A stretch of 63,068 bases of DNA, filler included, from Folioceros fuciformis (GCA_049999805.1; 3 parts of 2 records of this genome joined end to end with filler, not necessarily neighbours in it); one strand, 5' to 3'. Counted from the first letter of the whole stretch, positions 21,874-61,512 are shown. Program-made: numbers and translations. The notes: generated by a model not told the origin, from the letters alone.

Positions 21874-24578
21874 CCCGAACAATGCTTTCAAAACACCACC
21901 CTGCCCTCTCTATATCCCCGTGACTTTTGCAGGCATTCAACAAAGAGGTCAAGCCCACAACATTACTTTTGTCCTCAGATGATAACAGCATCATCTCTGC
22001 CTCATCTAAACGGCCTGCACGCCCCAGAAGATCAATCATGCAATTGTAATGTTCGACAACAGGCTTGACACCATGCTGTTCAGCCATGGAATAAAAGTGC
22101 CTGCGACCATCATGGACGAGTCCCGCATGACTGCACGCTACTAGAAGGCAAGTAAAAGTAGCACCATCAGGCTGAATACCAGCCACTAACATCTCCTCAA
22201 AACACGCTAGTGCTCCTTGGCCGTCATCACAAGTACCGTACCCAGATATCAGGGCAGTCCATGTCACCACATCCTTTGTCGACATGCTTTCAAACACCTG
22301 GCGCGCATCTCTGAGTTCACCACATTTTGAATACATGTCCACCAGACAGTTGCCCACCACTACTTCACCCAGAAGTCCTCTTTCCACAATCTGTGAGTGC
22401 AACTGCTTGCCCTTCTGTAAGGCACCAGTGCTTGCACAGGCCTTCAGGAGACAAGCAAAAGTAACATGGTCAGCCAAAATAAGACCCTCTTGCTCCATAT
22501 CTCCGTACAAAACAAGCGCCTCTTGGCCAAGTCCTTGCTGCGCATACCCAGATATCAGGGCAGTCCAAGTCACAACATCCTTTGTGGCCAAGCAGTCAAA
22601 CACATGGCGTGCATCTCTGAGTGCACCACATTTTGCATACATGCTCACCAGGCAATTGCCCAACACTGTATTGTCCAGTAGTCCTCTTTCCACAATTTGA
22701 GAGTGCAGCTGCTTGCCCTTTTGTAAGGCACCAGTGCTTGAACAGGCCTTCAGAAGGCAAGCAAATGTCACATGGTCAGCCAGAACCAGACCCTCTTGGT
22801 CCATTTGTCCAGACAGCACAAGCGCCTCTTGGCCCAATCCTTGCTGTGCATACCCAGATATGAGGGCAGTCCATGTCACCACATCTTTGGCGGCTAAGCT
22901 GTCAAAAACTTGGCGTGCATCTTCCAATTCACCACATTTCGCATACATGTCGACCAGGCAGTTGCCCAACACTACATTATCCAGTAGTTCTCTTTTTCCA
23001 ATCTCTGAGTGCAGCTGCCTTCCCTTCTGTAAGGCACCAGCGCTTGCGCAGGCCTTCAGCAGGCAAGCAAACGTGACATGGTCAGCCACAATGAGACCGT
23101 CTTGCTCCATTTGTTCATATAGGACAAGCGCCTCGTGAATGAGTCCTTGTTGTCCGTACCCAGATATTAGGGCATTCCATGTCACCACATCCTTTGTGGC
23201 CAAGCGGTCAAAAACCTGGCGTGCATCTTCCAGTTCACCACATTTTGCATACATGTCTACGAGGCAGTTGCTAACCAGTATATTATCTAGCCGTCCTTGT
23301 TCTACAATTTGTGAGTGCAGATGCCTGCCCATTTGTAAGGCACCAGCCAGCGCACAAGCCTTCAGAAGGCAAGCGAAAGTAACATGGTTAGCCACTATCA
23401 GGCCCTCCTGCTCCATTTGTCCATACACAACAAGTGCATCATTAACGAGCCCTTGCTGGGCATACCCAGCAATCAGTGCCGTCCATGTCACCACATCCTT
23501 TGTGGTCAAGCTTTCCAAAACATGGCGTGCATCTTCCAATTCCCCACATTTTGCATACATGTCCACCAGGCAATTCCCAACAAATAAGTCAGGAGGAATG
23601 TCACTGTGCAGCACATCAGAATGCACTTTTTCTGCCGGATACCAAGTCGGCAGTAAATGCACAAGCTTGAAGGACAGCTACAAAGACATGAGCGTCCGCC
23701 TTCACTCCTGAACTACGCATCTCATCGTACAGTAGTATGGCCTCATGAGGTTTCCCCTGCTTAGCATGTGCAGAGATTATGGAAAACCACATGAAAATAT
23801 TTGGTTTCCCCACCCTGGTGAACACATCCATGGCCTCCTGTAGCCTACCTCCACACGCATACATGCGTAAGATATGGTTCCCCAGGTATGCATCTGACTC
23901 GTATCCAAGTTTGACAGTGAGGTCATGGACTCGTCGCCCCACGACCATATCCTTCTTAGCTGCACACAGTTTTAGGACGGAGTAAAACAGAGACTGGGTT
24001 ATAGCAAAATCTGTCTGCGCCAGATATTCCAGGGCTCCAACGGCCTCCGAAAGCTTCCCCTGCTGACATAACGTGCGCACTGTTCCAGCTGTTGTGACGC
24101 CCATTCCCGATCCTGCACGCCTGCCAGGTTCAGGCTTATCCGGAGAGGTGGAGTTAGAAGGCAAGGCCCCATGACCCATCCCCGTATCCAACGAGACTAG
24201 ATGCTCGTCAACCCAAGCTGCCTTGTACATGCTGTCTATCCACAAGACCTCTCTGGACCCCTTACGCTGGAAGTCAGGCGCACCGGACCTCTGCTTACCT
24301 CGTCTGTTGTCCCACCACAAGGTAGGGTCCAGGAAAAGATTTTGCCACAAGTGCTCCTGTTCCTGCTCCCGGCGCCTATCATCGCTGGAAAATCCGTGCA
24401 CACCCACAAATTTCCCCGGAAGTGGGTGTACTGGACTCCTCACACTGCTGCAGCTGGAGGCTCGATTGTTTGCCGAGAATCGTCTCCCTAAAGTCAGTTG
24501 AGGAGGTTCTCGTTTAACCCCTGTGCGTACACCAATTCGTTGGGTCCACACCTGGTCCGGTTGCCATACCGTGGCCAT
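21874..24578 (-). pseudogene. PDF-motif PLS-PPR, +1 frameshift, 3' end lost in an assembly gap (pseudogene or sequencing error)
   Basis: N-part 23616-24578 (MATVWQPD..., LWQNLFLDPTLWWDNRR..PDFQRK) and PLS/E1/E2 part 21874-23630 in another frame; one extra base in the A-run at ~23627-23631 relative to paralogues (GRKVH). Confidence 0.85.
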
Positions 24579-25614
24579 CCTTCAGATACTGCCCTTAGGC
24601 GATGACTCTCACAGCAGGCCATCGATGGATCGTGGCAGGATGAGTAAGTGCAAGTACATGTATTGTGGGATGGTCACACGAAACAAATTAGCTACAGGGT
24701 ACCCGAGAAAAAAGCCTCAAACTCTTGGAGCAATGGAAGATGGTTTCTACTGGGGCACGACCTTGTTTCCATGGTTTCGATGCCAACAGATGGAATTTTG
24801 TGTCCTCAAGAAGGTGACGCCTATGGCATCACCTTCTGTAGCTGAGGTCCAGGCCCAGGCCCAACTTCTTTCAAGAGTACAAGATCTGTATCCCAGTAGG
24901 CATCAACATAACTAGAAACACTAAGCTTACCTCGAGATCTCGGGAGGAAGAGTTAGAGATGCATTTTGCGAAAGCAGCCTTGCCTCAAGGAGATGCTTTA
25001 TCTAATACCGATTGTGTTGGGTTCACAGGTGGGCTTTTAAAAGATGGTTACAAGAAGATGCATCCTTTCACTGGCCTACTTAGTTAACTTTAAGTACCAA
25101 CTAGCCGATTCCTAGTTTGACTGATCCCCCATTGGCTCTGCTGTAGCCGACCTTAACCGACGCTGCCTGCACTATTTTTAACTGGAAGCATAACCGGCAC
25201 CTTCTTTCTCGTTCCTTTCAGGTATTTATCATGTGAAGAATACATTAGCATGTTAGCACTGCAATGTGCTCGTCCAAGGTTATCCAGGAATTGAGAAACA
25301 GGGCTCACACCACATCAGTGAATACCCAGACAAGTGTAGGAAGTTTACGAATTGGACACCAACAGAGAAAGTCACCCAGTGGACACCAACTTTCTAGCGA
25401 GTTTCAATTGTATACAAGTGGAAGGGGGGTTCAGCCCATTGTGTAGGAGGCACATGAAATTGAGAAGAAAAAACATGCTTCTGCTTCATAGTTGGCTAAG
25501 GCTTAGGAGTTGGCACAAGTGCTGGAGATTCCCCTCCTTACGTTCCGCGCCTAGCAGCTGAGTAGCCCTCCTCTCTACTCTAAGCTAGCTTTATTGTCGA
25601 CTTGCTATCCTCCT

Positions 25615-25963: not shown

Positions 25964-28900
25964 TCATGGCCTATCCTTGCAACTGCAAGAACCGTTCGCG
26001 AATCGATGCACACGGTACCCGTCCCTTACCACAATGCGTCTCTGTTCAAGCCTTGACATGATCCCTGTCGAACTGTGGCAGTCACTGCACATGCGTAGAT
26101 TCTTGGTTACCACAAGAGGCGTACCACTTGGGGTGTTCAAGAGACCAAACGCCAGAGCTAGCTTCTCAGCATGCCCGCAAAGCGCCTCTTCCTTTTCCTT
26201 CTCGTCCATTGGCTTGAGCACTAATTTTGTGTGAGGGACGTGTCCTCCTTCCACCTTCAGCCGTGCATTCGTGCTCTCTACTTGAAGCGCAAGATCTTCT
26301 CTTCTTTCCCCCACCAGGAATCTGTGTACCTTCTTATTCACCTCAATGCTTGCCACTGCAGGTTTCTTGTTAGCTCCTGCTACCATTCTCTGTCTTTCAA
26401 TCCTGTCTACATCGCTCCACCTTCCTGCACTTGCGTAGGCATTGGCCATGAGCACATACGCAGACGCCCACTTGGGGTCCAGCTCAACAATTCTTTCAAA
26501 ACACCATACCGCCCTCTCTATGTCGCCGTGACTTTTGCAAGCATTCAGCAGAGAAGTCAAGCCCACAACGTTACTTTGGCCTTCACATGGTGCTAGCATC
26601 TTCTCTGCCTCATCTAAATGGCCTGCACGCCCAAGAAGATCAATCATGCAATTGTAATGCTCAATTGTAGGTTTGACACCATGCTGTTCAGCCATGGAAT
26701 CGAAGTGCTTGCGACCCTCCTGGACCAGTCCCTCGTGACTGCATGCTACTAAAAGGCAGGTGAAGGTAGCACCATCGGGCTGGATACCGGCAACTAACAT
26801 CTCCTCAAAACAAGCTAGCGCTCTGTGACCAGCATCACAAGTACCATAACCAGATATCAGGGCATTCCACGTCACCACATCCTTCGAGGCCAGGCTGTCA
26901 AAGACCTGACGTGCCTCTCCCAGTTCACCACATTTCGCAAACATATCCACCAGGCACTCGCCCAACACCACGTCATCCAGAAGCCCTCTTGCAACAATCT
27001 GTGAGTGCAGGTGCCTGCCAATCTGCAAGGCACCAGTGCTTGCACAAGCCTTGAGAAGGCAAGCGAAAGTGACCTGGTCAGCCAAAACGAGGCCCTCTTG
27101 CTCCATTTGTCCATGCAGAACAAGGGCCTCTTGGCCAAGTCCCTGCATAGCATACCCAGCTATCAGGGCATTCCATGTCACTACATCCTTTATGGCCAAG
27201 CTGTCAAAAACCTGTCGTGCTTCTTCCACTTCACCGCATTTTGCGTACATGTCCACGAGGCAGTTGCCCAACACTACGTTATCCAGCAATCCCCTTGCGA
27301 CGATCAGTGAATGCAGCTGCCTGCCCTTTTGCAAGGCAGATGTGCTGGCACAGGCCTTGAGAAGGCAAGCAAACGTTACATGGTCCGCCAAAATGATTCC
27401 CTCCTGTTCCATTTGTCCATACAGAACAAGCGCCTCTTGGCCAAGTCCTTGATGTGCATACCCAGATATCAGGGCAGTCCATGTCACCACATCCCTTTTG
27501 GCCAAGGTGTCAAACAGCTGGCGTGCATCTTCCAGTTCACCACATTTTGCATACATGTCCACCAGGCAGTTGCCCAGCACGACGTTATCCACCATCAGTC
27601 CCCTTTCCACAATCTGTGTGTGCAACTGCCTTCCCTTCTGTAAGGCACCAGTGCTTGCACAGGCCTTCAGTAGGCAGGCGAACGTAACGTGGCCAGGCAA
27701 AACGAGACGGTCTTTCTCCATTTGCCCGTACAGGAGAAGCGCCTCCTGGCCAAGTCGTTGCTGTACGTACCCAGCTAGCAGGGCATTCCATGTCACCACA
27801 TCTTTGGTGGGCAAGCTGTCAAAAACCTGGCGTGCATCTTTCAGTTCACCACATTTAGCGTACATGTCCACCAGGCTGTTGCCAACCAACACATTATGTA
27901 GCTGCCGTCGTTCTACAATCTGCGAGTGCAGATGCCTGCCCATCTGCAAGGCACCTGCGTGTGCACAGGCCTTCAGAAGGCAAGCAAAAGTGACATGGTT
28001 AGGCATGACGAGGCCCTCCTCCTCCATTTGTCCATAAACAACAAGTGCCTCCTGTCCAAGTCCTAGGTGGGCATACCCAGCAATCAATGCAGTCCATGTC
28101 ACCACATCCTTTGCGGCCAAGCCGTCAAAAACGTGGCGTGCATCTTGCATTTCACCACATTTAGCGTACATGTCCACCAGGCAGTTTCCAACAAACAAGT
28201 CAAGAGGAGTGCAACTGTGCAACACATCACAGTGCACCTTTCTGCCAGATTCCAAGTCGGCGACAGACGCACAGGCTTGAAGGGCAGCTGCAAAGACGTG
28301 GGCATCCGCCTTCACTCCTGACCTGCGCATCTCATGGTACAGTTTTATGGCCCCATGAGGTTTCCCCTGCTTTGCATGTGCAGATATTACGGAAAACCAC
28401 ATGAAGACATCTGGTTTAGCTACCCTGGTGAACACATCCATGGCCTCCTGCAGCCTCCCTCCACATGCATACATACGCAAGATATGGTTTCCCAGATATG
28501 CATTGGACTCGTACCCAAGTTCAAGTACTAGATCATGGACTCGGCGACCCAAAAGCAGATCCTTCCTAGCTGCACACACTTTCAAGACGGTGTAAAACAG
28601 AGACTGAGAAATGGCAGAGTCTGTGTGCGCCAGAGATTCCAGGGCAGCAACGGCCTCAGAAAGCTTCCCCTGCTGACAAAGCGTGCGCACGGTGACAGGC
28701 GTTATGACGCCGCCCACTTGCGACCCTGCACGCCTGCCAGATTCCGAGCTGGGCTTGGGAGGAGGGGGATCGTGACCCATCTGCATATCCAGATGACGGA
28801 GCCGCTCATCGACCCAAGCTGGCTTGAGGAGGCTGTTCAACCAAAGGACCTCGCCGGAGCCCTTGCGCCGGAAATCAGGCGAAAGGGAGCTGTTCTTGTC

Positions 28901-29167
28901 TCGTCTGTTGTCCCACCACAAGGTAGGGTCCAGAAAAAATTGTTGCCACAAGTGATCCTGCTCCTGGCGACGGCCATCGCTGGAGAAACCGTCCCCAGCC
29001 AGACCTTCCGTGAGAAGTGGAAGCGCTGGGCTCCTGACGCTCTTGCACCTAGAGCCTTTGCTTGGCATAGGCCGGGTGAGGTGAGCCGGACATTGTGGTA
29101 TGACCCCTGTACACGCACCAATTTGTTGGGTCCCCGACAAAGCGTCCGGTTGCCATAGTGTGGCCAT
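25964..29167 (-). CDS. PDF-motif + PLS-PPR + DYW:KP protein (1067 aa)
   Basis: LWQQFFLDPTLWWDNRRDKNSSLSPDFRRKGSGEVLWLNSLLKPAWVDERL; PLS array; NKKPAVASIEV; GHAEKLALAFG; MCSDCH; ends SCSCKDRP. Confidence 0.95.
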   Translation of the reverse strand: MATLWQPDALSGTQQIGACTGVIPQCPAHLTRPMPSKGSRCKSVRSPALPLLTEGLAGDGFSSDGRRQEQDHLWQQFFLDPTLWWDNRRDKNSSLSPDFRRKGSGEVLWLNSLLKPAWVDERLRHLDMQMGHDPPPPKPSSESGRRAGSQVGGVITPVTVRTLCQQGKLSEAVAALESLAHTDSAISQSLFYTVLKVCAARKDLLLGRRVHDLVLELGYESNAYLGNHILRMYACGGRLQEAMDVFTRVAKPDVFMWFSVISAHAKQGKPHGAIKLYHEMRRSGVKADAHVFAAALQACASVADLESGRKVHCDVLHSCTPLDLFVGNCLVDMYAKCGEMQDARHVFDGLAAKDVVTWTALIAGYAHLGLGQEALVVYGQMEEEGLVMPNHVTFACLLKACAHAGALQMGRHLHSQIVERRQLHNVLVGNSLVDMYAKCGELKDARQVFDSLPTKDVVTWNALLAGYVQQRLGQEALLLYGQMEKDRLVLPGHVTFACLLKACASTGALQKGRQLHTQIVERGLMVDNVVLGNCLVDMYAKCGELEDARQLFDTLAKRDVVTWTALISGYAHQGLGQEALVLYGQMEQEGIILADHVTFACLLKACASTSALQKGRQLHSLIVARGLLDNVVLGNCLVDMYAKCGEVEEARQVFDSLAIKDVVTWNALIAGYAMQGLGQEALVLHGQMEQEGLVLADQVTFACLLKACASTGALQIGRHLHSQIVARGLLDDVVLGECLVDMFAKCGELGEARQVFDSLASKDVVTWNALISGYGTCDAGHRALACFEEMLVAGIQPDGATFTCLLVACSHEGLVQEGRKHFDSMAEQHGVKPTIEHYNCMIDLLGRAGHLDEAEKMLAPCEGQSNVVGLTSLLNACKSHGDIERAVWCFERIVELDPKWASAYVLMANAYASAGRWSDVDRIERQRMVAGANKKPAVASIEVNKKVHRFLVGERREDLALQVESTNARLKVEGGHVPHTKLVLKPMDEKEKEEALCGHAEKLALAFGLLNTPSGTPLVVTKNLRMCSDCHSSTGIMSRLEQRRIVVRDGYRVHRFANGSCSCKDRP

Positions 29168-31966: not shown

Positions 31967-34678
31967 TCACGGCCGGCCATTACAACTGCAGCGACCGGCG
32001 GTGAATCGATGCACCCGATAGCCATCCCTCACCACAATGTGTCTCCCTTCAAGCCTCGACATGATCTCCGTGGAGCTGTGGCAGTCACTGCACATGCGTA
32101 GATTCTTCGTTACCACCAGAGGTGTCCCACTCGGAGTGTTCAACAGACCAAACGCCAGGGCCAGCTTCTCAGCATGACCGCAAAGCGCATTTTCTTTTCC
32201 CTTCTCAGACAGTGGCTTCAACACCAACCGTGTGTGAGGTATGTGCCCTCCTTCCTGCTTCACACGGGTGTTCGTCCTTTCTACCATGGACGCAAGATCG
32301 TCTCTCCTTTCCCCCACAGCAAACGTATGTACCTCCTTATTCACCTCCATGGTGGCCACAGCAGCTTTCTTGTTCGCCCCGGCTACCATTCTCCGGGTTT
32401 CAATCCTGTCTACATCGCTCCACTGGCCGGCATCCGCATAAGCATTGGCCATGAGCACATACGCTGATGCCCGCTGAGGGTCCAGCCTAACAATGATCTC
32501 GAAACACCAAATCGCCCTCTCTATATCCCCGTGTCTTTTGCAGGCGTTCAACAAAGTCATTAGCCCCACGATATCAGTTTGGCCCTCGCATGATAGCAGG
32601 ATCTCCTTAGCCTCGTCTAGATGGCCGGCACGCCCAAGAAGATCAACCATGCACGTGTAATGCTCGATAGTAGGTTCGATCCCATGCCGTTCAGCCATGG
32701 AATCAAAGAGCTCACGACCCTCACGGACTAGTCCCTCATGGCTGCATGCTACCAGAAGGCAGCTGAACGTGGCACCGTCAGGCTGAACACCGGCTGCTGA
32801 CATCTCCTCAAAGCAAGCAAGTGCTCTCTGACCATCGTCACAAGTACCGTACCCGGATATAAGGGCGTTCCAAGTCACCACATTCTTTGTCTTCAAGCTG
32901 TCAAAAACCTGGCGCGCATCTTCCAGTTCACCACATTTTGCATACATGTCCACCAGGCTGTTGCCCACCAATACACTATCCATGAGTCCCCTTTCCACAA
33001 TCTGGCAGTGCAGCTCCCTGCCCTTCTGCAGGGCACCAGTGCTTCCACAGGCCTTCAGAAGGCAGGCAAAAGTAACATGGTCACCCAAGATCAGCCCTTC
33101 TTGTTCCATTTGCGCATACACACCGAGCGCCTCTTGGCCTAGCCCATGCTGAGCATACCCACCTATCAGAGCATTCCATGTCACCACATCCTTCACAGCC
33201 GAGCTGTCAAAAACCAGGCGTGCATCTTCCAGTTCACCACACTTTGCATACATGTCCACAAGACAGGTGCCCACCACCAGTACATCCAGCAGCCCTCTTT
33301 CCACGATGAGTGAGTGCAGCTGCCTCCCCTTCTGCAAGGCACAAGTGCTTGCACAAGCCTTCAGAAGGCAAGCAAAAGTCACATGGTCAGCAAAAATGAT
33401 GCCCTCCTGCTCCATTTGTTCGTACACGAGAAGCGCCTCATGCCCCAGTCCTCGTTCAGTATATCCAGCGATCAGGGCATTCCATGTTACCACATTCTTT
33501 GCGTTCATGCTGTCAAAAACCTGGCGTGCATCTTCCAACTCACCGCATTTCGCATACCCAGATATCAGCGCATTCCATGTCACCACGTCCTTGGTGGCCA
33601 TACTGTCAAAAACCTGGCGTGCATCTTTCATTTGGCCACATTTGGCGTACATGTCCACCAGGCAGTTGCCAACAAACAGGTTACTGGGAATGCCACTGTG
33701 CAACACATCGCAGTGCACTTGTCGGCCAGATTCCACGTCAGAGGCAAATGCACAAGCTTGAAGGGCAGCTACAAAGACGTGAGCATCGGCCTTCACTCCT
33801 GACCCACGCATCTTGCTATATAGTTGTATGGCCTCACGAGGTTTGCCATGCTTGGCATACACGGAGATTATGGAAGACCACATGAAGGCATCCGGTTTGC
33901 CCACTCTGGTGAACACATCCATGGCCTCCTCTACCCTACCTCTACATGCGTACATGCGCAAGATATAGTTCCCCAAGTATGCACTCGAGTCGTAACCAAG
34001 TTTGACAGTGAGATCGTGAACTTGTTGGCCCACGACCAAGTCCTTCCGGGCTGTGCACAGTTTCAGCACAGAGCAGAACAGAGACTTAGGGATGGCAGCG
34101 TCTGTCTGCGCCAGGGATTCCAGGGCCCCAACCGCCTCACAAAGCTTCCCCTGCTGACACAAAATGCTCACGGTTCCAACTGTTACAACACCCATTTCTG
34201 ATACCGCACGCGTTCCACCTGTAGACATGGCCGGAGGGGTGGATTTGGAAGGAAAGGTGCAATGAACCATCTGCGTATCTAAGGAGACGAGCTGGTCATC
34301 AACCCAAGCTGGCTTAAACACGTTGTTTAACCACAGGACCTCGCCGGACCCCTTACGCCGAAAGTGAGGGGAGCGGGATCTCTTGTTGTCTCGTCTGTTA
34401 TCCCACCACAGGGTAGGGTCCATGAAAAATTGTTGCCACAAGTGCTCCTGCTCCTGCTCCTGCTCCTGGCGAAAACCATCGCTGCAAATTCTGCCCTCTT
34501 CCATCCATTTTCTCGGGCCCGGAAGTGCTAGGCTCCTGACATAAACGCACCTGGAGGCATGGTTGTTTCCCTGGTGTGGACTCCCTGAGATGGGATGAGC
34601 TGGAGTTCCTACCAGGATCCTTGTACACACACCAATTTGTTGGGTGCACAACAGGTCCGCTTGCCAAACTGCCGCCAT
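31967..34678 (-). CDS. PDF(PHF)-motif + PLS-PPR + DYW:KP protein
   Basis: ATG at 34678 (MAAVWQAD); LWQQFFMDPTLWWDNRR..SPHFRRK; NKKAAVATMEV; GHAEKLA; MCSDCH; ends CSCNGRP. Confidence 0.95.
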   Translation of the reverse strand: MAAVWQADLLCTQQIGVCTRILVGTPAHPISGSPHQGNNHASRCVYVRSLALPGPRKWMEEGRICSDGFRQEQEQEQEHLWQQFFMDPTLWWDNRRDNKRSRSPHFRRKGSGEVLWLNNVFKPAWVDDQLVSLDTQMVHCTFPSKSTPPAMSTGGTRAVSEMGVVTVGTVSILCQQGKLCEAVGALESLAQTDAAIPKSLFCSVLKLCTARKDLVVGQQVHDLTVKLGYDSSAYLGNYILRMYACRGRVEEAMDVFTRVGKPDAFMWSSIISVYAKHGKPREAIQLYSKMRGSGVKADAHVFVAALQACAFASDVESGRQVHCDVLHSGIPSNLFVGNCLVDMYAKCGQMKDARQVFDSMATKDVVTWNALISGYAKCGELEDARQVFDSMNAKNVVTWNALIAGYTERGLGHEALLVYEQMEQEGIIFADHVTFACLLKACASTCALQKGRQLHSLIVERGLLDVLVVGTCLVDMYAKCGELEDARLVFDSSAVKDVVTWNALIGGYAQHGLGQEALGVYAQMEQEGLILGDHVTFACLLKACGSTGALQKGRELHCQIVERGLMDSVLVGNSLVDMYAKCGELEDARQVFDSLKTKNVVTWNALISGYGTCDDGQRALACFEEMSAAGVQPDGATFSCLLVACSHEGLVREGRELFDSMAERHGIEPTIEHYTCMVDLLGRAGHLDEAKEILLSCEGQTDIVGLMTLLNACKRHGDIERAIWCFEIIVRLDPQRASAYVLMANAYADAGQWSDVDRIETRRMVAGANKKAAVATMEVNKEVHTFAVGERRDDLASMVERTNTRVKQEGGHIPHTRLVLKPLSEKGKENALCGHAEKLALAFGLLNTPSGTPLVVTKNLRMCSDCHSSTEIMSRLEGRHIVVRDGYRVHRFTAGRCSCNGRP

Positions 34679-35029
34679 ACCACCCAAAGTGACTCTAGTA
34701 GAGGACTACGAGAGTATCACCGTGCTTCAGTGTGTGACCTGGTGCACACAACCCCGGAAGGACGGACAGAACATCGCATTCCTCTCCCACACAACGACAC
34801 ACACAGACACACATAACTGTCGCTTTGGATTGGAAGGGTTGGGACGCAATTGGCTCCTGTGTTCCTCCGAACTTTGCTTCGGTCTAGTAAGAGACAGATT
34901 CATTGGATTTTGATGGCATCTATCACGATAAGCGAGGCGGATAAGCGTTCGCAAATCAATCTCACCCATGCCTTAACTATTCGCTTCACACAGCCCAATG
35001 TGCTGGAGCACAAACTATTTTTTTCATCG

Positions 35030-38770: not shown

Positions 38771-38789
38771 CGTTGTCATCCTGTGTATG

Positions 38790-40947: not shown

Positions 40948-43900
40948 ATGGCCACCGTATGGCAACCGGACCCCTTGTGGACCCAACAAATTGGTGTACG
41001 TACAGGAATTCTTCCAGGATCTCGCGCTCGGCGTGTCTCAGGGAGTGAACCCCTGGCAAACAGAGCCTCCTCCAGGTGCAGCAGTCTTAATGTCAGGAGC
41101 CCAGCACTTCCACTCTCGAGCCAATGTGTGGGTGGGGATGGGCTTTCCATCGATGCTCGTTGCCAGGAGCAGCAGCAGGAGCACTTGTGGCAACAATTCT
41201 TTCTGGACCCCAACATGTGGTGGGACAACAGACCAGAGAAGAGGAGCTCCCGTTCGCCTGACTTCCGGCGTAAGGGGTCCAGCGAGGTGCTGTGGTTAGA
41301 CAACATGTTCAAGCCAGCTTGGGTTGATGAGCAGCTCGTATCCTTGGACTTGCGGATGGCTCACGGCCCCTCGTCTCCTTCCAAGTCCAGCTCTCCGGGC
41401 AAGCCTGAACCTGGCTCGAGGCGTGTAGGGTCGGAAATGGGCGTCGTAACGTCTGTAACCGTGCGCACATTATGTCAGCAGGGGAAGCTGTCTGAGGCCG
41501 TTGAAGCCCTGGAATCTCTGGCGCAGGGAAACTCAGCTATTTCACAGTCCCTCTTTTACCCTGTGCTCAAACTCTGTGGAGCTAAGAAGGATCTGGTTTT
41601 GGGCCGACGAGTACACCAAATCATTGTCAAACTTGGGTACGAGTCGGGCTCGTACCTGGGCAACCATATCTTACGGATGTATGCATGTGCAGGTAGGCTG
41701 CAGGAGGCCATGGATGTGTTCATCAGGGTACGCAAACCAGATGCTTTCATCTGGTCTTCCATTATCTGTGCATGCGCCAAGCATGGGAAACCTAAGGAGG
41801 CCATCCGATTGTACAATGTGATGTGTAGGTCGGGAGTGAAGGCGGATGCTCACGTCTTTGTAGCTGCCCTTCAAGCTTGTGCATTTGCCTCTGACGTGGA
41901 ATCTGGCCGAAAAGTGCACTCTCATGCCTTGCACAGTGGCATTCACACTAACTTGTTTGTTGGCAACTGCTTGGTGGACATGTATGCCAAATGTGGCGAA
42001 CTGAAAGATGCACGCCATGTTTTTGACAGCATGGCGACACGGGATGTGGTTACATGGAATGCCCTTATATCTGGGTATGCCCAGCAAGGGCTCCAGCACG
42101 AGGCGCTTGTTATGTACGGACAAATGGAGCGGGAGGGACTGGTTCTGGCCAACCACGTTACTTTCGCCTGCCTTCTGAAGGCTTGCGGAAGCATTGGTGC
42201 CTTGCAGAAGGGCAGGCTTATCCACTCACTGATTGTGGAAAGAGGGCTGCTGGATAACGTAGTGGTGGGCACCTCCCTGGTGGACATGTATGCAAAATGC
42301 GGCCAACTGAAAGAAGCACGCCAGGTTTTTGAGAGCATGGCCACAAAGGATCTGGTGACATGGAATGCCCTGATTGCTGGGTATTCAAATTGCAGTGAAC
42401 CCAGAGATGCACTCCAGACGGAATTCGATAGCATGGCTGCCACGAAGGATACGGTGAGACATGATGCCTCGAGAGCCGGGATTGCCGAGCAAGGGTTCAC
42501 ACATGAAGCACTTGTAGTGTATGGACAAATGGAGCAGGAGGGGATCATTTTGGCTGACCATGTTACTTATGCTTGCCTTCTCAAGGCCTGTGCAAGCACT
42601 GGTGCCTTACAGGAGGGCAGGCAGCTGCACTCACGGATTGTCCAAAGAGGACTACTGGATGACTTAGTGTTGGGCAACCGTTTGGTGGACATGTATGCAA
42701 AGTGTGGTGAATTGGAAGATGCACGCCAGGTTTTTGACAGCATGGCCTCAAAGGATGTGGTTACCTGGAATTCCCTGATATCTGGGTACGCCAAACAAGG
42801 GCTCGGCCATGAGGCACTGGTGGTGTATGGACAAATGGAGCACCAAATCCTGCTTCTGGCTAACCATGTTACTTTTGCTTGCCTTCTGAAGGCCTGTGCA
42901 AGCACTGGTGCCTTACACAAGGGCAGGCAGCTGCATTCACTGATCGCGGAAAGAGGGCTGCTGGATAACGTAGTGGTGGGCACCTGCCTGGTGGACATGT
43001 ATGCAAAATGTGGTGAACTGGAAGATGCACACCAGGTGTTTGACAGCTTGTCCACCAAGAATGTGGTGACATGGACTGCCCTGATTTCTGGGTATGCACA
43101 CGTAGGACTCGGCCAAGAGGCGCTGGACGTGCATGAACAAATGGAGGAGGCGGGCCTCATTTTGGCTGACCACATGACTTTTGCTTGCCTTCTGAAGGCC
43201 TGTGGAAGCACTGGTGCGTTACAAAAGGGCAGGCAGCTACACTCACAGATTGTGGGCAGAGCACTGCTGGATGACGTAGTGCTAGGCAACTGCCTGGTGG
43301 ACATGTATTCAAAATGTTGTGAAGTGGAAGAGGCACGCCAGGTTTTTGACAGCATGGCCAAAAAGGATGTGGTGACATGGACTGCCCTGATATCTGGGTA
43401 TGCAAAATGTGGTGAATTGAAAGATGCACGCCAGCTTTTTGAAAGCATGGACGCAAAGAATGTAGTGACTTGGAATGCCCTGATTGCTGGGTATGTCGAG
43501 CAAGGGCTGGGACACGAGGCGCTTGCTCTGTATGGACAACTGGGGCAGGAGTGCCTGGTTGTGGCTGACCATGTCACTTTTGGTTGCCTTCTTAGGGCAT
43601 GTGCAAGCACTGGTGCCTTACAGAAGGGCAGACAGCTGCACTCACTGATTGTTGAAAGAGGGCTGCTGGATAACGTAGTGTTAGGCAACTGCCTGGTGGA
43701 CATGTATGCAAGATGTGGGAATCTGGGAGCTGCACGCCGGGTTTTTGACAGCTTGGGCACGAAGGACGTGGTGACATGGAATGCCCTGATTTCTGGGTAT
43801 GGTGTTTGTGATGATGGTCACACTGCACTAGCTTGTTTCGAGGAGATGCTAGCTGCCGGTATGCAGCCTGATGGAAGCACGTTCACATGCCTGCTAGTAG

Positions 43901-44682
43901 CATGTAGTCATGGGGGACTAATCCAGGAGGGTCGCAAGTACTTTCATTCCATGGCTGAAGAACATTGCGTCGAACCTACGATTGAGCACTACACCTGCAT
44001 GGTTGATCTTCTTGGGCGTGCTGGCCATCTACAGGAGGCTGAGAAAATGCTGTTATTGTGCGAGGGCCAAGGTGATGTTGTGGGATTGACGTCGTTGCTG
44101 AGTGCCTGCAAAAGTCACGGGGATCTGGAGAGAGCAATGTGGTGTTTTGAAAGCATTGTGAGGCTGGACCCCAAGGAGGCGCCCGCCTATGTGCTCATGG
44201 CCAATGCTTTTGCAGATGCGGGTCGGTGGAAGGATGTAGACAGGATTGAAAGACAGAGAGCGGTAGCTGGAGCTAACAAGAAACCTGCAGCGGCCTCCAT
44301 TGAGGTGAAAAAGCAGGTACATAGATTCCTGGTAGGAGAAAGGAGAGAGGATCTTGATTTTAAATTGAAGAGCATGAATGGACGTGTGAAGCAGGAGGGA
44401 GGCCACGTACCTCACACTAAGTTGGTGTTGAAGCCAATGTGTGAGAAGGAAAAGGAAGATGTCCTTTGTGGGCATGCTGAGAAATTAGCTCTGGCGTTTG
44501 GTCTGTTGAACACTCCGAGTGGGACACCTCTTGTGGTAACCAAGAATCTACGCATGTGCAGTGACTGCCACAGTTCCACGGAGATCATGTCAAGGCTTGA
44601 ACAGAGAGACATTGTGGTAAGGGATGGGTACCGTGTGCATCGATTCGCAAACGGTTGTTGCAGTTGCAAGGGTCGACCGTGA
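40948..44682 (+). CDS. PDF-motif + PLS-PPR + DYW:KP protein (1244 aa)
   Basis: LWQQFFLDPNMWWDNRPEKRSSRSPDFRRKGSSEVLWL; long PLS array; NKKPAAASIEV; GHAEKLA; MCSDCH; ends CSCKGRP. Confidence 0.96.
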   Translation: MATVWQPDPLWTQQIGVRTGILPGSRARRVSGSEPLANRASSRCSSLNVRSPALPLSSQCVGGDGLSIDARCQEQQQEHLWQQFFLDPNMWWDNRPEKRSSRSPDFRRKGSSEVLWLDNMFKPAWVDEQLVSLDLRMAHGPSSPSKSSSPGKPEPGSRRVGSEMGVVTSVTVRTLCQQGKLSEAVEALESLAQGNSAISQSLFYPVLKLCGAKKDLVLGRRVHQIIVKLGYESGSYLGNHILRMYACAGRLQEAMDVFIRVRKPDAFIWSSIICACAKHGKPKEAIRLYNVMCRSGVKADAHVFVAALQACAFASDVESGRKVHSHALHSGIHTNLFVGNCLVDMYAKCGELKDARHVFDSMATRDVVTWNALISGYAQQGLQHEALVMYGQMEREGLVLANHVTFACLLKACGSIGALQKGRLIHSLIVERGLLDNVVVGTSLVDMYAKCGQLKEARQVFESMATKDLVTWNALIAGYSNCSEPRDALQTEFDSMAATKDTVRHDASRAGIAEQGFTHEALVVYGQMEQEGIILADHVTYACLLKACASTGALQEGRQLHSRIVQRGLLDDLVLGNRLVDMYAKCGELEDARQVFDSMASKDVVTWNSLISGYAKQGLGHEALVVYGQMEHQILLLANHVTFACLLKACASTGALHKGRQLHSLIAERGLLDNVVVGTCLVDMYAKCGELEDAHQVFDSLSTKNVVTWTALISGYAHVGLGQEALDVHEQMEEAGLILADHMTFACLLKACGSTGALQKGRQLHSQIVGRALLDDVVLGNCLVDMYSKCCEVEEARQVFDSMAKKDVVTWTALISGYAKCGELKDARQLFESMDAKNVVTWNALIAGYVEQGLGHEALALYGQLGQECLVVADHVTFGCLLRACASTGALQKGRQLHSLIVERGLLDNVVLGNCLVDMYARCGNLGAARRVFDSLGTKDVVTWNALISGYGVCDDGHTALACFEEMLAAGMQPDGSTFTCLLVACSHGGLIQEGRKYFHSMAEEHCVEPTIEHYTCMVDLLGRAGHLQEAEKMLLLCEGQGDVVGLTSLLSACKSHGDLERAMWCFESIVRLDPKEAPAYVLMANAFADAGRWKDVDRIERQRAVAGANKKPAAASIEVKKQVHRFLVGERREDLDFKLKSMNGRVKQEGGHVPHTKLVLKPMCEKEKEDVLCGHAEKLALAFGLLNTPSGTPLVVTKNLRMCSDCHSSTEIMSRLEQRDIVVRDGYRVHRFANGCCSCKGRP

Positions 44683-45640: not shown

Positions 45641-45889
45641 TACTTGGGCTTATCGCCGTTGGACGGTGTGAATGTAGTGTGTGGCGTGTGCTGCAAAGTG
45701 GAAGGAGGAAGAAGGATTCCCTTTCTCTTACATTAAGATATGTCTGGATTAGAGTTAGTCATCATATCCCTGTCCATGTCGGAGCTCGGTCAGGAATGGA
45801 GTTATTAAACACGCACAAATTCACACCCTCTTCCCTCTCCCCCGCCCCACCCCCCTGATGCGCACAGCAGCCTTGCATCGTCCTTCTTC

Positions 45890-48800
45890 TCACGGTCGAC
45901 CCTTACAACTGCAATAACCTGCTGCAAATCGATGCACACGGTATCCATCCCTTACCACAATATCTCTCTGTTCAAGCCTCGACATTATCTCCGTGGAACT
46001 GTGGCAGTCACTGCACATGCGTAGATTCTTGGTCACCACCAGAGGTGTGCCACTCGGAGTATTCAACAGACCAAACGCCAGAGCTAGCTTCTCAGCATGG
46101 CCACAAAGTACATCTTCCTTTTCCCGCTCACACACTGGCTTCAGCACCAGCTTTGTGTGAGGTACGTGGCCACCTTCCTCCTTCACACGTGCATTCGTGC
46201 TCTCCACCTTCAGCGCAATATCCTTTGTCCTGTCTCCAACCATAAACTGATGCACCTCCTTATTCACCTCAATGTTCGCCACTGCGGGTTTCTTGCAAGC
46301 TCCTGCTGCCTTTCTCTCTGTTTCTATCCTCTCTACATCGCTCCACCTACCTGCGTCTGCGTAGACATTGGCCATGAGCACATACGCAGACGCCTGTTGA
46401 GGGTCCAGCCTCACAATGCGTTCAAAACACCACACCGCCCTCTCCATATCCCCGTGACTTTTGCACGAGTTCAGTAAAGACGTCAACCCCACAACATTGC
46501 TTTGGCCCTCATACTCGCACTCACACGATAATAGCATCTTCTCTGCCTCATCTAAGTGGCCAGCGCGCCCAAGAAGGTCGATCATGCAACTGTAATGCTC
46601 CATGCTAGGTTTGATGCTATATTCTTCAGCCATGGAATCGAAGTGTTTGTAACCCTCGTGCACCAGTCCCTCATGGCTGCATGCTACTAGGAGGCACGTA
46701 AAAGTGGCGTCATCGGGCTGAACACCGGCGACTAACATCTCCTCAAAACAAGCTAGTGCCTTGTCACCTTCATCGCAAGCACCATACCCAGCAATCAGGG
46801 AATTCCACGTCACCACATCCTTTGTGGCCAAGCTGTCGAAGACATGGCGTGCAGCTTGTAGGTTACCACACTTTGCATACATGTCCACCAGGCAGTTGCC
46901 CACCACGTTCTTGTCCACTTCACCAGTGCCCACCACAGCGTCACCCAGCAGTCCTCTTTGGACAATCTGTGAGTGCAGTTGCATGCCCTTCTGTAACGCA
47001 CCAGTGCTTGCACACGCCTTCAGAAGGCAAGCAAAAGTAACATGATCAGCCAAAATGAGGCCCGCCTCCTCCTCCATCCGTCCATACACAACCAGTGCCT
47101 CTTGGCCAAGTCCTTGCTGTGAATACCCAGCGATCAGTGCTGTCCACGTCACCACATCTTTTGTGGCCAAGCTGTCAAAAACCTGACGTGCATCTTCCAG
47201 TTCGCCACATTTGACATACATGTCCACCAGGCAGTTCCCCACCATCACGTCGTCGTCTAGCAGTCCCCTTGCCACAACCTGCGAATGCAGTTGCATGCCT
47301 TTCTGCAAGGCGCCAGTGCTTGCACACGCTTTCAGAAGGCAACTGAAAGTAACGTGGTCAGCCAAAATGAGCCCCGCCTCCTCCATCTGTCCGTACACAG
47401 CCAGCGCCTCTTGCCCGAGTCCTTGCTGGGCATAACCACCAATGAGGGCAGTCCATGTCACCACATCCTTTGCGCTCATGGAGTCAAAAACTTCGCGTGC
47501 GTCCTCCATTTCACCACATTTTGCGTACATGTCCATCAGGCAGGTGCCCACCAGTACGTNNNNNNNNNNNNNNNNNNNNNNNNNNNNNNNNNNNNNNNNN
47601 NNNNNNNNNNNNNNNNNNNNNNNNNNNNNNNNNNNNNNNNNNNNNNNNNNNNNNNNNNNGCCCACCAGTACGTCATCCAGCAGCCCTCTTTCCCCAATCT
47701 GTGAGTGCAGCTGCCTGCCCTTCTGTAAGGCGCCAGTGCTTCCACAGGCCTTCAGAAGGCAACCAAAAGTAACACGATCAGCCAAAATGAGGCCCTCCTG
47801 TTCCATTTGTCCATACACAACAAGCGCATCATGTCCCAGCCCTTGCTGGGTATACCCAGCTATGAGGGCATTCCATGTCACCACATTCTTTGTGATCAGG
47901 CTGTCAAACACCTGGCGTGCATCTTTCAGTTCACCACACTTTGCATATCCTGCTATCAGGGCATTCCACGTCACCACATCCTTTGTGGCCATGCTGTCAA
48001 AAACCTGTCGCGCCTCTTTCATGCTGCCACATTTTGCATACATGTCCACCAGGCTGTTGCCGACAAACAAGTTAGCAACAATGCCACTGTGCACCACATC
48101 ACCGTGCACTTTTCTACCCGACTTCAAATCGGCCGCACATGCACAAGCTTGAAGGGCGGCTACAAAAACGTGAGCATCGGCCTTCCCTCCGGACTTGTGC
48201 ATCTCATGGTACAGTTGCACGGCCTCTTTGGGTTTCCCATGCTTGGCGAATGCGGAGATGATGGAAGACCACATGAAGGCATCCGGCTTCCCCACTCTGG
48301 TGAGCACACCCATAGCCTCCTCTAGCCTACCTCCACATGCGTACATGCGCAATATATGATTCCCCACATAAGTATTGGACCCGTACCCAAGTTTAACGCT
48401 GAGATCATGCACCCGTCGCCCCACAACCAAATCCTTCTTGGCCGTACACAGTTTCAGCACAGCGCAAAGCAGGTATGGGGAAAAGGCAAAGTCTGTCTGT
48501 GCCAGGGATTCCAGGGCTACAACGGCCTCCGAGAGCTTCCCCTGCTGACATAGCGTGCTCACGGTAACAGGAGTAACGACGCCCATTTCCGATCCTGCCC
48601 GCCTCCCAGGTTCAGGCTGCTTCTGCGGAGAGGTGGATCCGGGAGGAGAGACACCGTGTCCCATCTGCATATCCAAGGAAACGAGCTTCTCATCAACCCA
48701 AGCTGGCTTGTACATGCTGTTCAGCCACAGCACTTCGCCGGACCCCTTACGCCGGAAGTCAGGCGAACGGGAGCTCTTCTTATCTCGTCTGTTGTCCCAC

Positions 48801-49102
48801 CATCGGGTAGGGTCCAGAAAAAATTGTTGCCACAAGGATTGTTGCTCCTGCTGCTCCTGCTCCTTGCAAACCCCGGCACCGCTGGAAAGCCCGTCTGTAC
48901 CCAAACCGTTTTCAAGGAGTGGAAGTGTTGGTCCAGGGGTCCTTACACTTACACTCCTGCTGCACCTGGAGGACTTGCTTCCCAGGGATTGAACGCCTAA
49001 GATGAGGTGAGCGGGAGGTCCTGAGAGAAGCCCTGCGCACACACCAACTCCAACTGCAATTTGTTGGGTCGACAACGGGTCCGATTGCCATACTGTGGCC
49101 AT
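45890..49102 (-). CDS. PDF-motif + PLS-PPR + DYW:KP protein (internal 100-N gap)
   Basis: LWQQFFLDPTRWWDNRRDKKSSRSPDFRRK; CKKPAVANIEV; GHAEKLA; MCSDCH; ends CSCKGRP; gap 47560-47659 flanked by similar repeat sequence. Confidence 0.9.
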   Translation of the reverse strand: MATVWQSDPLSTQQIAVGVGVCAGLLSGPPAHLILGVQSLGSKSSRCSRSVSVRTPGPTLPLLENGLGTDGLSSGAGVCKEQEQQEQQSLWQQFFLDPTRWWDNRRDKKSSRSPDFRRKGSGEVLWLNSMYKPAWVDEKLVSLDMQMGHGVSPPGSTSPQKQPEPGRRAGSEMGVVTPVTVSTLCQQGKLSEAVVALESLAQTDFAFSPYLLCAVLKLCTAKKDLVVGRRVHDLSVKLGYGSNTYVGNHILRMYACGGRLEEAMGVLTRVGKPDAFMWSSIISAFAKHGKPKEAVQLYHEMHKSGGKADAHVFVAALQACACAADLKSGRKVHGDVVHSGIVANLFVGNSLVDMYAKCGSMKEARQVFDSMATKDVVTWNALIAGYAKCGELKDARQVFDSLITKNVVTWNALIAGYTQQGLGHDALVVYGQMEQEGLILADRVTFGCLLKACGSTGALQKGRQLHSQIGERGLLDDVLVGXXXXXXXXXXXXXXXXXXXXXXXXXXXXXXXXXXVLVGTCLMDMYAKCGEMEDAREVFDSMSAKDVVTWTALIGGYAQQGLGQEALAVYGQMEEAGLILADHVTFSCLLKACASTGALQKGMQLHSQVVARGLLDDDVMVGNCLVDMYVKCGELEDARQVFDSLATKDVVTWTALIAGYSQQGLGQEALVVYGRMEEEAGLILADHVTFACLLKACASTGALQKGMQLHSQIVQRGLLGDAVVGTGEVDKNVVGNCLVDMYAKCGNLQAARHVFDSLATKDVVTWNSLIAGYGACDEGDKALACFEEMLVAGVQPDDATFTCLLVACSHEGLVHEGYKHFDSMAEEYSIKPSMEHYSCMIDLLGRAGHLDEAEKMLLSCECEYEGQSNVVGLTSLLNSCKSHGDMERAVWCFERIVRLDPQQASAYVLMANVYADAGRWSDVERIETERKAAGACKKPAVANIEVNKEVHQFMVGDRTKDIALKVESTNARVKEEGGHVPHTKLVLKPVCEREKEDVLCGHAEKLALAFGLLNTPSGTPLVVTKNLRMCSDCHSSTEIMSRLEQRDIVVRDGYRVHRFAAGYCSCKGRP

Positions 49103-61511: not shown

Positions 61512-61512
61512 G

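What the first reader, a model, noticed from the sequence alone, without database searches (positions are those of the whole stretch)
21874..49102. OSB-type PDF ssDNA-binding motif fused N-terminally to DYW:KP (U-to-C type) PPR editing factors
Seen: six paralogues carry LWQ.FF.DP..WWDNR..K....PDF.RKGSGEVLWL....KPAWVD..L ahead of the first PPR (about 24198-24350, 28800-28951, 34290-34441, 37575-37726, 41185-41337, 48685-48835). Five of the six run through to a DYW:KP domain; the sixth is cut by a gap. Established: this matches the ~50-aa PDF motif of plant organellar ssDNA-binding OSB proteins (LWQ.FF.NP..WWDNR..K.NP..PDFKHK.TGEALWL...P.W), which binds ssDNA. Editing PPRs normally have only a transit peptide upstream. 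Inference: a PDF-PPR-DYW:KP architecture could tether editors to nucleoid ssDNA or transcription bubbles for co-transcriptional editing, add RNA affinity, or even allow ssDNA editing. I do not recall this fusion being described, but cannot verify that.
Basis: partly seen in the sequence, partly recalled or inferred. Interest (0 to 1): 0.88.

Follow-up and report, generated by a model that had tools for sequence, protein, structure and literature searches.

The report
OSB-type PDF domain on PPR editors

Summary
Exactly six copies of a ~60-aa motif lie in the window, each between a disordered presequence and the first PPR of an intronless PLS-PPR gene. A profile of the six finds 670 proteins at E<=1e-3. 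These include proteins named OSB1 and OSB3 (E 3.7e-23 and 8.2e-21) that carry an SSB-like domain. It is therefore a genuine OSB-type PDF motif.

- **Fold:** AlphaFold2 gives a confident small alpha/beta domain (pLDDT 93), joined to the PPR array by a disordered linker.
- **Selection:** it is as constrained as the PPRs (dN 0.14, against 0.36-0.37 in the flanks).
- **DYW type here:** the five complete DYW domains are the hornwort 'GRP' type of DYW:KP (HAE, then GRP in four and DRP in one).

The link to KP is not specific. Of the 99 PDF+PPR proteins collected, 65 had no DYW match. Of the 34 with a DYW domain, 28 (all from Diphasiastrum) are canonical PG/HSE/DYW. PDF-PPR fusions also occur in Selaginella, Ceratopteris, Adiantum and Pteridium.

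The most likely role is an auxiliary single-stranded nucleic-acid-binding module. That is inferred, not shown. I found no paper describing the fusion, but two key papers and all supplements were unreadable.

The parts
25964..29167 (-). Gene g1: uninterrupted 1067-aa ORF with presequence, PDF domain, linker, PLS-PPR array, E motif and a DYW:KP domain (ends DRP)
   Evidence: Translation. Pfam PPR, E_motif and DYW_deaminase (aa 975-1065). HAE...CSDC...DRP.
28775..28966 (-). PDF domain of g1 (aa ~68-131)
   Evidence: hmmsearch E 4e-33. AF2 pLDDT 93 alone and 80-96 in context.
31967..34678 (-). Gene g5: uninterrupted ORF (ATG at 34678) with PDF, PPR and DYW:KP (ends GRP). Its motif reads PHF and its KP box reads KKAA.
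34265..34456 (-). PDF domain of g5
   Evidence: E 8e-33
35030..38005 (-). Gene g4: uninterrupted 991-aa ORF with PDF, PPR and DYW:KP (ends GRP). Its motif reads PHF and its KP box reads KKAA. A long QE-rich spacer precedes the PDF.
37550..37741 (-). PDF domain of g4
   Evidence: E 1e-31
40948..44682 (+). Gene g3: uninterrupted 1244-aa ORF with PDF, PPR and DYW:KP (ends GRP)
41170..41361 (+). PDF domain of g3
   Evidence: E 1e-32
45890..49102 (-). Gene g2: PDF, PPR and DYW:KP (ends GRP). The ORF reads across a 100-N assembly gap at 47560-47659, so its continuity is not shown.
48659..48853 (-). PDF domain of g2
   Evidence: E 9e-35
21818..24578 (-). Gene g6: PDF and PPR, with a one-base frameshift in an A-run near 23625-23630. 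The C-terminal end is lost in an N gap with an artificial ttaattaattaa linker (21774-21873). This is either a pseudogene or an assembly error.
24177..24365 (-). PDF domain of g6
   Evidence: E 4e-32
18385..21153 (-). Comparison gene: neighbouring 922-aa PPR-DYW:KP (HAE, ends DRP) without a PDF motif

Best explanation
**What is shown.** The window holds a young tandem array of intronless nuclear genes for PLS-class PPR editing factors of the hornwort 'GRP' DYW:KP type. Six of them have an extra, independently folding ~60-residue domain that is homologous to the PDF motif of plant organellar ssDNA-binding (OSB) proteins. The order of parts is:
- a disordered, acid-poor presequence of about 55 aa;
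- a short acidic Q/E spacer;
- the PDF domain;
- a disordered Ser/Pro/Gly linker of about 20-25 aa;
- the PPR array, E motif and DYW:KP domain.

The domain is under purifying selection as strong as on the PPR repeats. The fusion is not a hornwort or KP peculiarity. One to four N-terminal PDF copies precede PLS-PPR arrays in the lycophytes Diphasiastrum and Selaginella and in the ferns Ceratopteris, Adiantum and Pteridium, with canonical DYW:PG domains or with no DYW domain. The data are compatible with a single origin of the PPR-linked PDFs.

**What is inferred.** The PDF domain survives import and acts as a sequence-unspecific binding module for single-stranded nucleic acid, tethered flexibly at the N-terminal end of the PPR tract. 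That end faces the 5' side of the bound RNA (recalled PPR polarity). There it would raise the affinity or on-rate of the editor for its transcript, or keep the RNA upstream of the PPR footprint single-stranded. This would be a built-in helper in lineages that lack MORF proteins. It is an accessory part: catalysis and site choice lie in the DYW and PPR parts.
For: **Homology**
- The profile of the six motifs finds 670, 186 and 17 hits at E<=1e-3, 1e-10 and 1e-30.
- Of the 150 listed, 138 have no PPR. They mostly show 1-4 motif copies C-terminal to a region of about 200 aa.
- Of 10 non-PPR hits tested, Pfam SSB PF00436 is above its cut-off in 5, below it in 4 and absent in 1.
- Source names include OSB1 (Populus) and OSB3 (Euphorbia), and OSB1, OSB2 and OSB3.
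- The core residues W, P, W(W)D.R..K, PDF, KHK, LW and P.WV are conserved alike in 137 PPR-linked and 398 other motif instances.

**Domain character**
- AF2 of the motif alone gives pLDDT 93 and pTM 0.76, with helix, three short strands and helix.
- In the 330-aa N-terminus, residues 1-60 and 132-151 have pLDDT <50, the PDF (63-130) has 80-96, and the PPR helices from 157 have >=90.

**Selection**
- Mean dN is 0.140 for the PDF and 0.136 for the first PPRs.
- It is 0.368 for the presequence and 0.358 for the linker.
- dN/dS is 0.34 (PDF), 0.21 (PPRs), 0.68 (presequence) and 0.47 (linker).

**Retention after import**
- Apart from D8 in all six and one further residue in three of them (E34, E32, E24), acidic residues are absent up to about position 54-64 and then cluster just before the PDF.
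- This is inference; no cleavage predictor was available.

**Breadth**
- 99 PDF+PPR proteins were collected: 78 Diphasiastrum, 5 Pteridium, 3 Ceratopteris, 2 Adiantum, 2 Selaginella, 3 unnamed and 6 from the window.
- The Pteridium entries are transcript-derived ORFs, so the fusion is one mRNA there.

**Origin**
- The PPR/non-PPR label changes 10 times on a 346-tip tree, against a mean of 56 and a minimum of 50 in 500 shuffles.
- A tree constrained to hold all 27 PPR-linked representatives in one clade is 51 lnL units better than the free quick search, with p-AU 0.888.

**Function of PDF in OSBs**
- It is 'responsible for ssDNA binding' (PMC4166229, passages).

**MORF distribution:** MORFs occur only in seed plants (PMC13386178, passages).
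Against: - No binding, localisation, processing or expression data exist for these proteins.
- AtOSB1 and AtOSB2 bind ssDNA in preference to dsDNA or RNA (PMC4166229). This fits a DNA tether better than an RNA helper.
- Two of the six copies replace the nearly invariant Asp of P-D-F (96-97% conserved) with His.
- Designer GRP-type editors KP2 and KP3 perform U-to-C editing in E. coli and human cells without any PDF (PMC9478123).
- A KP-type neighbour in the same array lacks the PDF. The domain is therefore dispensable for the reaction.
- Foldseek found no solved structure like the model, so the fold gives no functional hint.
- The phyletic range rests on the best 150 and best 120 hits of two searches, not on complete genome scans.
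- The tree uses only 60 columns. A non-rejected clade is not a demonstrated clade.
Confidence: 0.55

Rival explanations
1. Nucleoid or ssDNA tether. The PDF domain keeps the ssDNA preference it has in OSBs and anchors the editor to single-stranded regions of organellar DNA (transcription bubbles, replication or recombination intermediates). Editing would then occur co-transcriptionally at the nucleoid.
For: - The only biochemistry known for PDF is ssDNA binding, preferred over RNA (PMC4166229; PMC6963530).
- The core residues are the same in OSB-linked and PPR-linked copies.
- The flexible linker suits a tether.
Against: - No localisation data exist.
- A domain that binds any ssDNA would compete with abundant OSB, SSB and Whirly proteins.
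- PPR-linked copies form their own sequence group and differ at several non-core positions, so their specificity may have shifted.
Confidence: 0.2
2. Protein-protein module. In PPR proteins the PDF domain mediates oligomerisation or recruits a partner (for example a trans-acting DYW protein for the many DYW-less PDF-PPRs, or OSB-like proteins). It would not bind nucleic acid.
For: - 65 of the 99 collected PDF+PPR proteins show no DYW match. If they are editing factors they would need a catalytic partner.
- Tandem PDF arrays of up to 12 copies exist without any other recognised domain.
Against: - No partner is known.
- The conserved surface is rich in Trp, Phe, Arg and Lys, which is typical of nucleic-acid binders.
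- In OSB1 the motif itself binds ssDNA.
Confidence: 0.12
3. Vestige within the targeting region. The motif was captured with a 5' exon or presequence, is removed with the transit peptide or is functionless in the mature protein, and persists only by descent.
For: - It lies only 73-94 residues from the start.
- Two copies have lost the Asp of PDF.
- A sister KP gene works without it.
Against: - dN is 2.6-fold lower than in the presequence and linker, and equal to that of the PPRs.
- It forms a confident independent fold.
- An acidic spacer separates it from the acid-poor presequence.
- The same arrangement is kept in hornwort-type, lycophyte and fern proteins, often in 2-4 copies.
Confidence: 0.06
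4. Artefact. The fusion is created by misassembly or by reading through an unrecognised intron or gene boundary.
For: The assembly has gaps with artificial linkers. One copy has a frameshift and another spans a gap.
Against: - Four copies are single uninterrupted ORFs from ATG through the PDF to the DYW stop.
- The linker is in frame in all six.
- The same architecture occurs in independently annotated genomes of four other species and in Pteridium transcript ORFs.
Confidence: 0.02

Closest known systems
[quoted passage not shown]
   Same: The same ~50-60-aa PDF motif, with a highly significant profile match and the same conserved core. Both are organelle-targeted nuclear gene products of green plants.
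   Different: - OSBs have an SSB-like OB fold followed by 1-3 C-terminal PDFs. The window proteins have no SSB domain, and their PDF is N-terminal to a PPR array.
- The PPR-linked copies form their own sequence group.
- Two of the six read PHF.
Hornwort DYW:KP PPR proteins of the GRP subgroup (the basis of designer editors KP2 and KP3)
   Same: PLS-PPR array, E motif and a DYW-family domain with a K-P box, HAE...CxxC, Lys88 and a C-terminal GRP.
   Different: - The passages I could read do not mention an N-terminal PDF domain, and the designer proteins lack one.
- One gene ends in DRP.
- Two have KKAA in place of KKPA.
MORF/RIP, ORRM and OZ helpers of seed-plant editosomes
   Same: They would play the same kind of role under the best explanation: a non-catalytic, non-specificity part that assists PLS-PPR editors.
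   Different: - Those are separate proteins or unrelated domains (MORF box, RRM, RanBP2 zinc finger). The 2026 survey of domain fusions lists these and not PDF (PMC13386178, passages).
- MORFs are confined to seed plants. PDF-PPRs were seen only in hornwort-type, lycophyte and fern sequences.
PDF-PPR proteins of Diphasiastrum, Selaginella, Ceratopteris, Adiantum and Pteridium (annotated as hypothetical or PPR proteins)
   Same: The same N-terminal PDF followed by a PLS-PPR array.
   Different: - They have 1-4 PDF copies, most often 2 in Diphasiastrum.
- Their C-termini are canonical DYW:PG (28 proteins) or lack a DYW match, never KP in the set collected.

Membership tests
PDF motif (as defined for OSB proteins) | A ~50-aa motif with a significant profile match to the motifs of bona fide OSB proteins | tested here: met
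   The profile of the six copies hits OSB1- and OSB3-named proteins at E 3.7e-23 and 8.2e-21, in their C-terminal repeats. There is no Pfam model for the motif.
PDF motif (as defined for OSB proteins) | The conserved Pro-Asp-Phe signature | tested here: met
   4 of 6 copies read PDF and 2 of 6 read PHF. Pro and Phe are invariant in all six.
PDF motif (as defined for OSB proteins) | Binds single-stranded DNA | not testable with these tools
   Known for AtOSB1 only from reviews. No nucleic-acid modelling or assay was available.
OSB protein family | An SSB-like OB-fold domain N-terminal to the PDF motifs | tested here: not met
   No PF00436 hit at E<=0.1 in P0001, P0003 or P0004. The region before the PDF is disordered. 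These are not OSB proteins; they only share the PDF module.
PLS-class PPR RNA-editing factor | A PPR array, then an E motif, then a DYW deaminase-family domain | tested here: met
   In the three proteins scanned (P0001, P0003, P0004), Pfam gives PPR families at E down to 1e-120, E_motif PF20431 at 40-52 bits and DYW_deaminase PF14432 at 110-114 bits. The same ends are seen in all five complete genes.
DYW:KP subclass (GRP subgroup of hornworts) | A Lys-Pro pair in place of the PG box at the start of the DYW domain | tested here: met
   KKPA in g1, g2 and g3; KKAA in g4 and g5. None has PG. The definition comes from PMC11845758 and PMC9478123.
DYW:KP subclass (GRP subgroup of hornworts) | An HAE (not HSE) ...CxxC zinc site, with Lys88 | tested here: met
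   HAE and CSDC in 5 of 5. Counting back from a 133-aa domain end places K88 and M92 in TKNLRMC (compared).
DYW:KP subclass (GRP subgroup of hornworts) | C-terminal GRP instead of DYW | tested here: met
   GRP in 4 of 5 and DRP in 1 of 5.
DYW:KP subclass (GRP subgroup of hornworts) | U-to-C editing activity | not testable with these tools
   Shown only for consensus designer proteins KP2 and KP3 (PMC9478123).

The most novel reading that the evidence does not exclude
The N-terminal PDF domain is a built-in, cis-acting helper of PLS-PPR editors. It arose once, early in land-plant evolution, and was kept in exactly the three lineages with massive editing, including U-to-C (hornworts, lycophytes, ferns). 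These lineages lack MORF proteins. The domain would hold the RNA, or the non-template DNA strand at the transcription bubble, single-stranded next to the PPR footprint, and this would make hyper-editing possible. If so, adding a PDF domain could improve designer PPR editors.
Probability: 0.25. Interest if true: 0.8.

Novelty: new variant of a known kind. Interest (0 to 1): 0.62.

Why it matters
PPR editing factors are usually described as a transit peptide, a PPR array and E/DYW domains, with helper functions supplied in trans (MORF, ORRM, OZ) in seed plants. A conserved, selected, independently folding nucleic-acid-binding domain fused to many PLS-PPRs in hornworts, lycophytes and ferns would add a new part to the editosome of exactly the lineages where editing is most extensive and helpers are unknown.

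It gives a direct, cheap test: compare editors with and without the domain, and run EMSA on a 60-aa domain. It may also be useful for engineering PPR-based C-to-U and U-to-C editors.

It widens the known range of the PDF motif beyond OSB proteins. In passing, it also widens that range beyond green plants.

Tried and rejected
- **Pfam on the motif alone:** no family. The only hit was DUF4666, E 0.12, which is noise.
- **PDB sequence search with the profile:** only E>=0.64 noise.
- **ESM Atlas:** best score 0.80 to phage clusters, below the level that means anything.
- **Own genome:** not held, so the number of PDF-PPR genes and the presence of an OSB gene in this organism could not be counted.
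- **First two word-index protein searches:** 1 hit and 0 hits. Only the third, with an alignment of 18 PPR-linked motifs, was productive.
- **Expression:** no RNA holder was listed. Run X1 matches the intergenic flanks without differences, so I read it as DNA. X2 and X3 gave only short pieces 90-95% alike, from relatives. Nothing can be said about transcription of these genes.
- **Homodimer test of the PDF domain (complex prediction, 2 copies):** no verdict.
- **Earlier findings of this scan:** none by place, sequence or words.
- **Literature searches:**
  - 'PDF motif' + pentatricopeptide gave one review without the fusion.
  - 'WWDNR' anywhere gave one unrelated paper.
  - 'organellar single-stranded DNA' + PPR + DYW gave 0.
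  - OSB + PPR + lycophyte gave 18 papers. In the two I opened, the hit was the author name Osborne.
  - A six-term search gave 0.
  - OSB + pentatricopeptide + DYW as whole words gave one paper, where the hit was 'Os' with a superscript b in a table.
- **Papers not held:** Gerke 2020, Gutmann 2020 and Zaegel 2006. Supplements are closed. A mention of the N-terminal motif in any of these cannot be excluded.


Full report
**1. What is in the window**

Positions 18.4-49.1 kb hold a tandem array of seven long intronless ORFs for PLS-class PPR proteins.
- Pfam finds many PPR repeats, an E motif and a DYW-family deaminase domain in the three proteins scanned from the six, and in the neighbour P0006.
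- A six-frame scan of the whole window with a PDF profile finds exactly six matches, with domain E-values of 1e-31 to 1e-35. The next best match has E>=1.
- The six lie at 24177-24365(-), 28775-28966(-), 34265-34456(-), 37550-37741(-), 41170-41361(+) and 48659-48853(-).
- Each sits in the same ORF as the PPR array, 73-94 residues after the start codon.
- The seventh PPR-DYW gene (18385-21153) has no such motif.

State of the six genes:
- Four are uninterrupted.
- The gene at 45890-49102 reads across a 100-N gap (47560-47659).
- The gene at 21818-24578 has a one-base frameshift in an A-run. It also loses its C-terminus in an N gap that contains an artificial ttaattaattaa linker.

**2. Is it the OSB PDF motif?**

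Yes.
- Pfam has no model for the motif, and no PDB chain matches by sequence.
- A profile of the six copies, searched against 1.84 billion representative proteins, finds 670 proteins at E<=1e-3, 186 at E<=1e-10 and 17 at E<=1e-30.
- Among the 150 listed, 138 have no PPR. Typically they carry 1-4 copies of the motif C-terminal to a region of about 200 residues.
- Of ten such proteins scanned with Pfam, five have the SSB domain PF00436 above its cut-off, four below it and one not at all.
- Source names include 'protein OSB1, mitochondrial-like' (Populus, E 3.7e-23) and 'organellar single-stranded DNA binding protein 3' (Euphorbia, E 8.2e-21). Many OSB1-, OSB2- and OSB3-named proteins appear.
- Reviews describe the PDF motif as a 50-aa motif named after its Pro-Asp-Phe signature. 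It is present in one to three copies after the OB fold, and is sufficient or responsible for ssDNA binding (PMC6963530, passages; PMC4166229, passages).
- The window proteins have no SSB domain. They share the PDF module but are not OSB proteins.

**3. Is it a real, functional part of the protein?**

- AlphaFold2 with a 45-sequence alignment folds the 62-residue segment with pLDDT 93 and pTM 0.76. The order of elements is helix, three short strands, helix.
- In the N-terminal 330 residues of the first gene, pLDDT falls into four zones:
  - residues 1-60: below 50;
  - residues 63-130 (the PDF): 80-96;
  - residues 132-151: below 50;
  - from residue 157 (the PPR helices): at least 90.
  This is a separate domain on flexible tethers.
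- Selection among the six paralogues, as Nei-Gojobori means over 15 pairs:

| Region | dN | dN/dS |
|---|---|---|
| PDF | 0.140 | 0.34 |
| First PPRs | 0.136 | 0.21 |
| Presequence | 0.368 | 0.68 |
| Linker | 0.358 | 0.47 |

- Apart from D8 in all six and one further residue in three of them, the presequence has no acidic residue up to about position 54-64. An acidic Q/E-rich spacer then precedes the PDF. This suggests the transit peptide ends before the domain, but I could not run a cleavage predictor.
- Two copies read PHF instead of PDF.

**4. The DYW end**

- All five complete genes have HAE...CSDC.
- Four end in GRP and one in DRP.
- Three have a KKPA box and two have KKAA.
- All lack the PG box.
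- Counting back from the C-terminus places Lys88 and Met92 in TKNLRMC.
- These are the hallmarks given for DYW:KP and its hornwort GRP subgroup. Consensus designs of that subgroup (KP2, KP3) perform U-to-C editing in E. coli and human cells (PMC9478123, passages; PMC11845758, passages).
- Those designer proteins have no PDF, so the domain is not needed for catalysis.

**5. The fusion is widespread and not KP-specific**

Twelve of the 150 best hits combine PDF and PPR. A second search with an alignment of 18 PPR-linked motifs gave 306 hits at E<=1e-3 among 8000 scored candidates, of which 120 are listed.

Of the 287 proteins then held, 99 have both PDF and PPR. By source:

| Source | PDF+PPR proteins |
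|---|---|
| Diphasiastrum complanatum | 78 |
| Window | 6 |
| Pteridium aquilinum (transcript ORFs) | 5 |
| Ceratopteris richardii | 3 |
| Unnamed | 3 |
| Adiantum capillus-veneris | 2 |
| Selaginella moellendorffii | 2 |

- These counts include isoforms and alleles.
- The PDF copies lie N-terminal to the PPR array in all but three of the 99: one aberrant model, P0192, and two short fragments, P0112 and P0180.
- 34 of the 99 have a DYW domain. Six (five from the window plus P0109) are HAE with GRP or DRP.
- The other 28, all from Diphasiastrum, end in DYW. Of these, 27 have HSE...CxxC, and 22 read PG in the PG box, with single-residue variants in the rest.
- No seed-plant, moss or liverwort PDF-PPR appeared, although many angiosperm OSBs did. 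This rests on the best-hit lists only.

**6. Origin**

- Across 535 motif instances, the core residues are equally conserved in the PPR-linked (137) and the other (398) copies.
- On a FastTree of 346 representatives, the PPR/non-PPR label changes 10 times, against a mean of 56 and a minimum of 50 in 500 shuffles. The six window copies plus P0109 form a clade with support 88. Relatedness inflates such a contrast.
- An IQ-TREE search on 97 representatives, constrained to hold the 27 PPR-linked ones together, found a tree 51 lnL units better than the free quick search, with p-AU 0.888.
- A single origin is therefore not rejected. It is also not proven, because the alignment has only 60 columns.

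**7. How it most likely works**

Shown: homology, a fold of its own, a flexible attachment, purifying selection, and a conserved N-terminal position across three plant lineages.

Inferred: the domain is retained in the mature protein and binds single-stranded nucleic acid without sequence specificity.
- PPR tracts bind RNA with their N-terminal repeats towards the 5' side and the DYW domain at the edited base (recalled knowledge).
- The PDF would therefore contact the transcript upstream of the PPR footprint. There it could raise affinity or keep the RNA unfolded.
- MORF helpers occur only in seed plants (PMC13386178, passages), so the two helper types would have complementary ranges.

The main rival is that the domain keeps the OSB preference for ssDNA over RNA and tethers editors to the nucleoid. 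A protein-partner role, a functionless vestige and an artefact are less likely, for the reasons given under the rivals.

**8. Novelty**

None of my nine literature searches found the fusion. A 2026 survey of domain fusions in editing factors lists MORF, RRM, RanBP2-Znf and PPR fusions but not PDF, in the passages I read. The primary OSB paper, the two papers that defined DYW:KP and all supplements were not readable, so a prior mention cannot be excluded.

I rate this a new variant of known kinds: a known motif on a known class of editing factor, in an architecture I could not find described.

**9. Verdict**

- Interest is 0.62.

Noticed in passing
P0018, P0014, P0181 (hits): Proteins with 7-9 tandem PDF motifs come from the dinoflagellates Effrenium voratum, Cladocopium sp. 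and Cladocopium goreaui. The 7-8 copy counts are for P0014 and P0018; the copies in P0181 were not counted. [quoted passage not shown] The motif's range seems wider, or it was transferred.
   Followed up: partly
P0010, P0011, P0016: Some proteins consist almost wholly of PDF repeats: 12 copies in a 1160-aa Kingdonia uniflora protein, and 9-10 copies in unnamed ones. No PPR match was found. Other domains were not checked.
   Followed up: no
window 55509-59453 (+): Three consecutive ORFs on one strand: one with no Pfam hit whose sequence looks leucine-rich by eye, a Roc-COR GTPase (PF08477, PF16095) and a caspase-family Peptidase_C14 domain (E 4e-26). This may be one split ROCO-type gene with a caspase-like end.
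   Followed up: no
window 21774-21873 and 50206-50305: Two gaps share the same layout: 44 N, ttaattaattaa, 44 N. This is an artificial scaffold linker with stops in all frames. One of the two truncates the sixth PDF-PPR gene.
   Followed up: yes
window 14198-16486 (+): A further PPR gene, split into two ORFs (PPR repeats, then PPR plus E motif), without a PDF motif. No DYW domain was detected in these ORFs.
   Followed up: no
window 31967-38005 (-), genes g5 and g4: The two adjacent paralogues that changed PDF to PHF are the same two that changed the KP box from KKPA to KKAA. These are probably shared changes of one sub-lineage of the array. Their meaning is unknown.
   Followed up: no
window 2176-3339 (-), 4827-5975 (+), 10994-12001 (+), 60058-61515 (-): Other ORFs in the window: a copia-type gag/pol fragment, a NUDIX hydrolase, a Peptidase_C26/GATase and a ubiquitin C-terminal hydrolase.
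   Followed up: no
window 21720-21773 (-): A short G-rich tandem repeat (units like GGGGT and GGGAT) directly abuts the scaffold gap.
   Followed up: no
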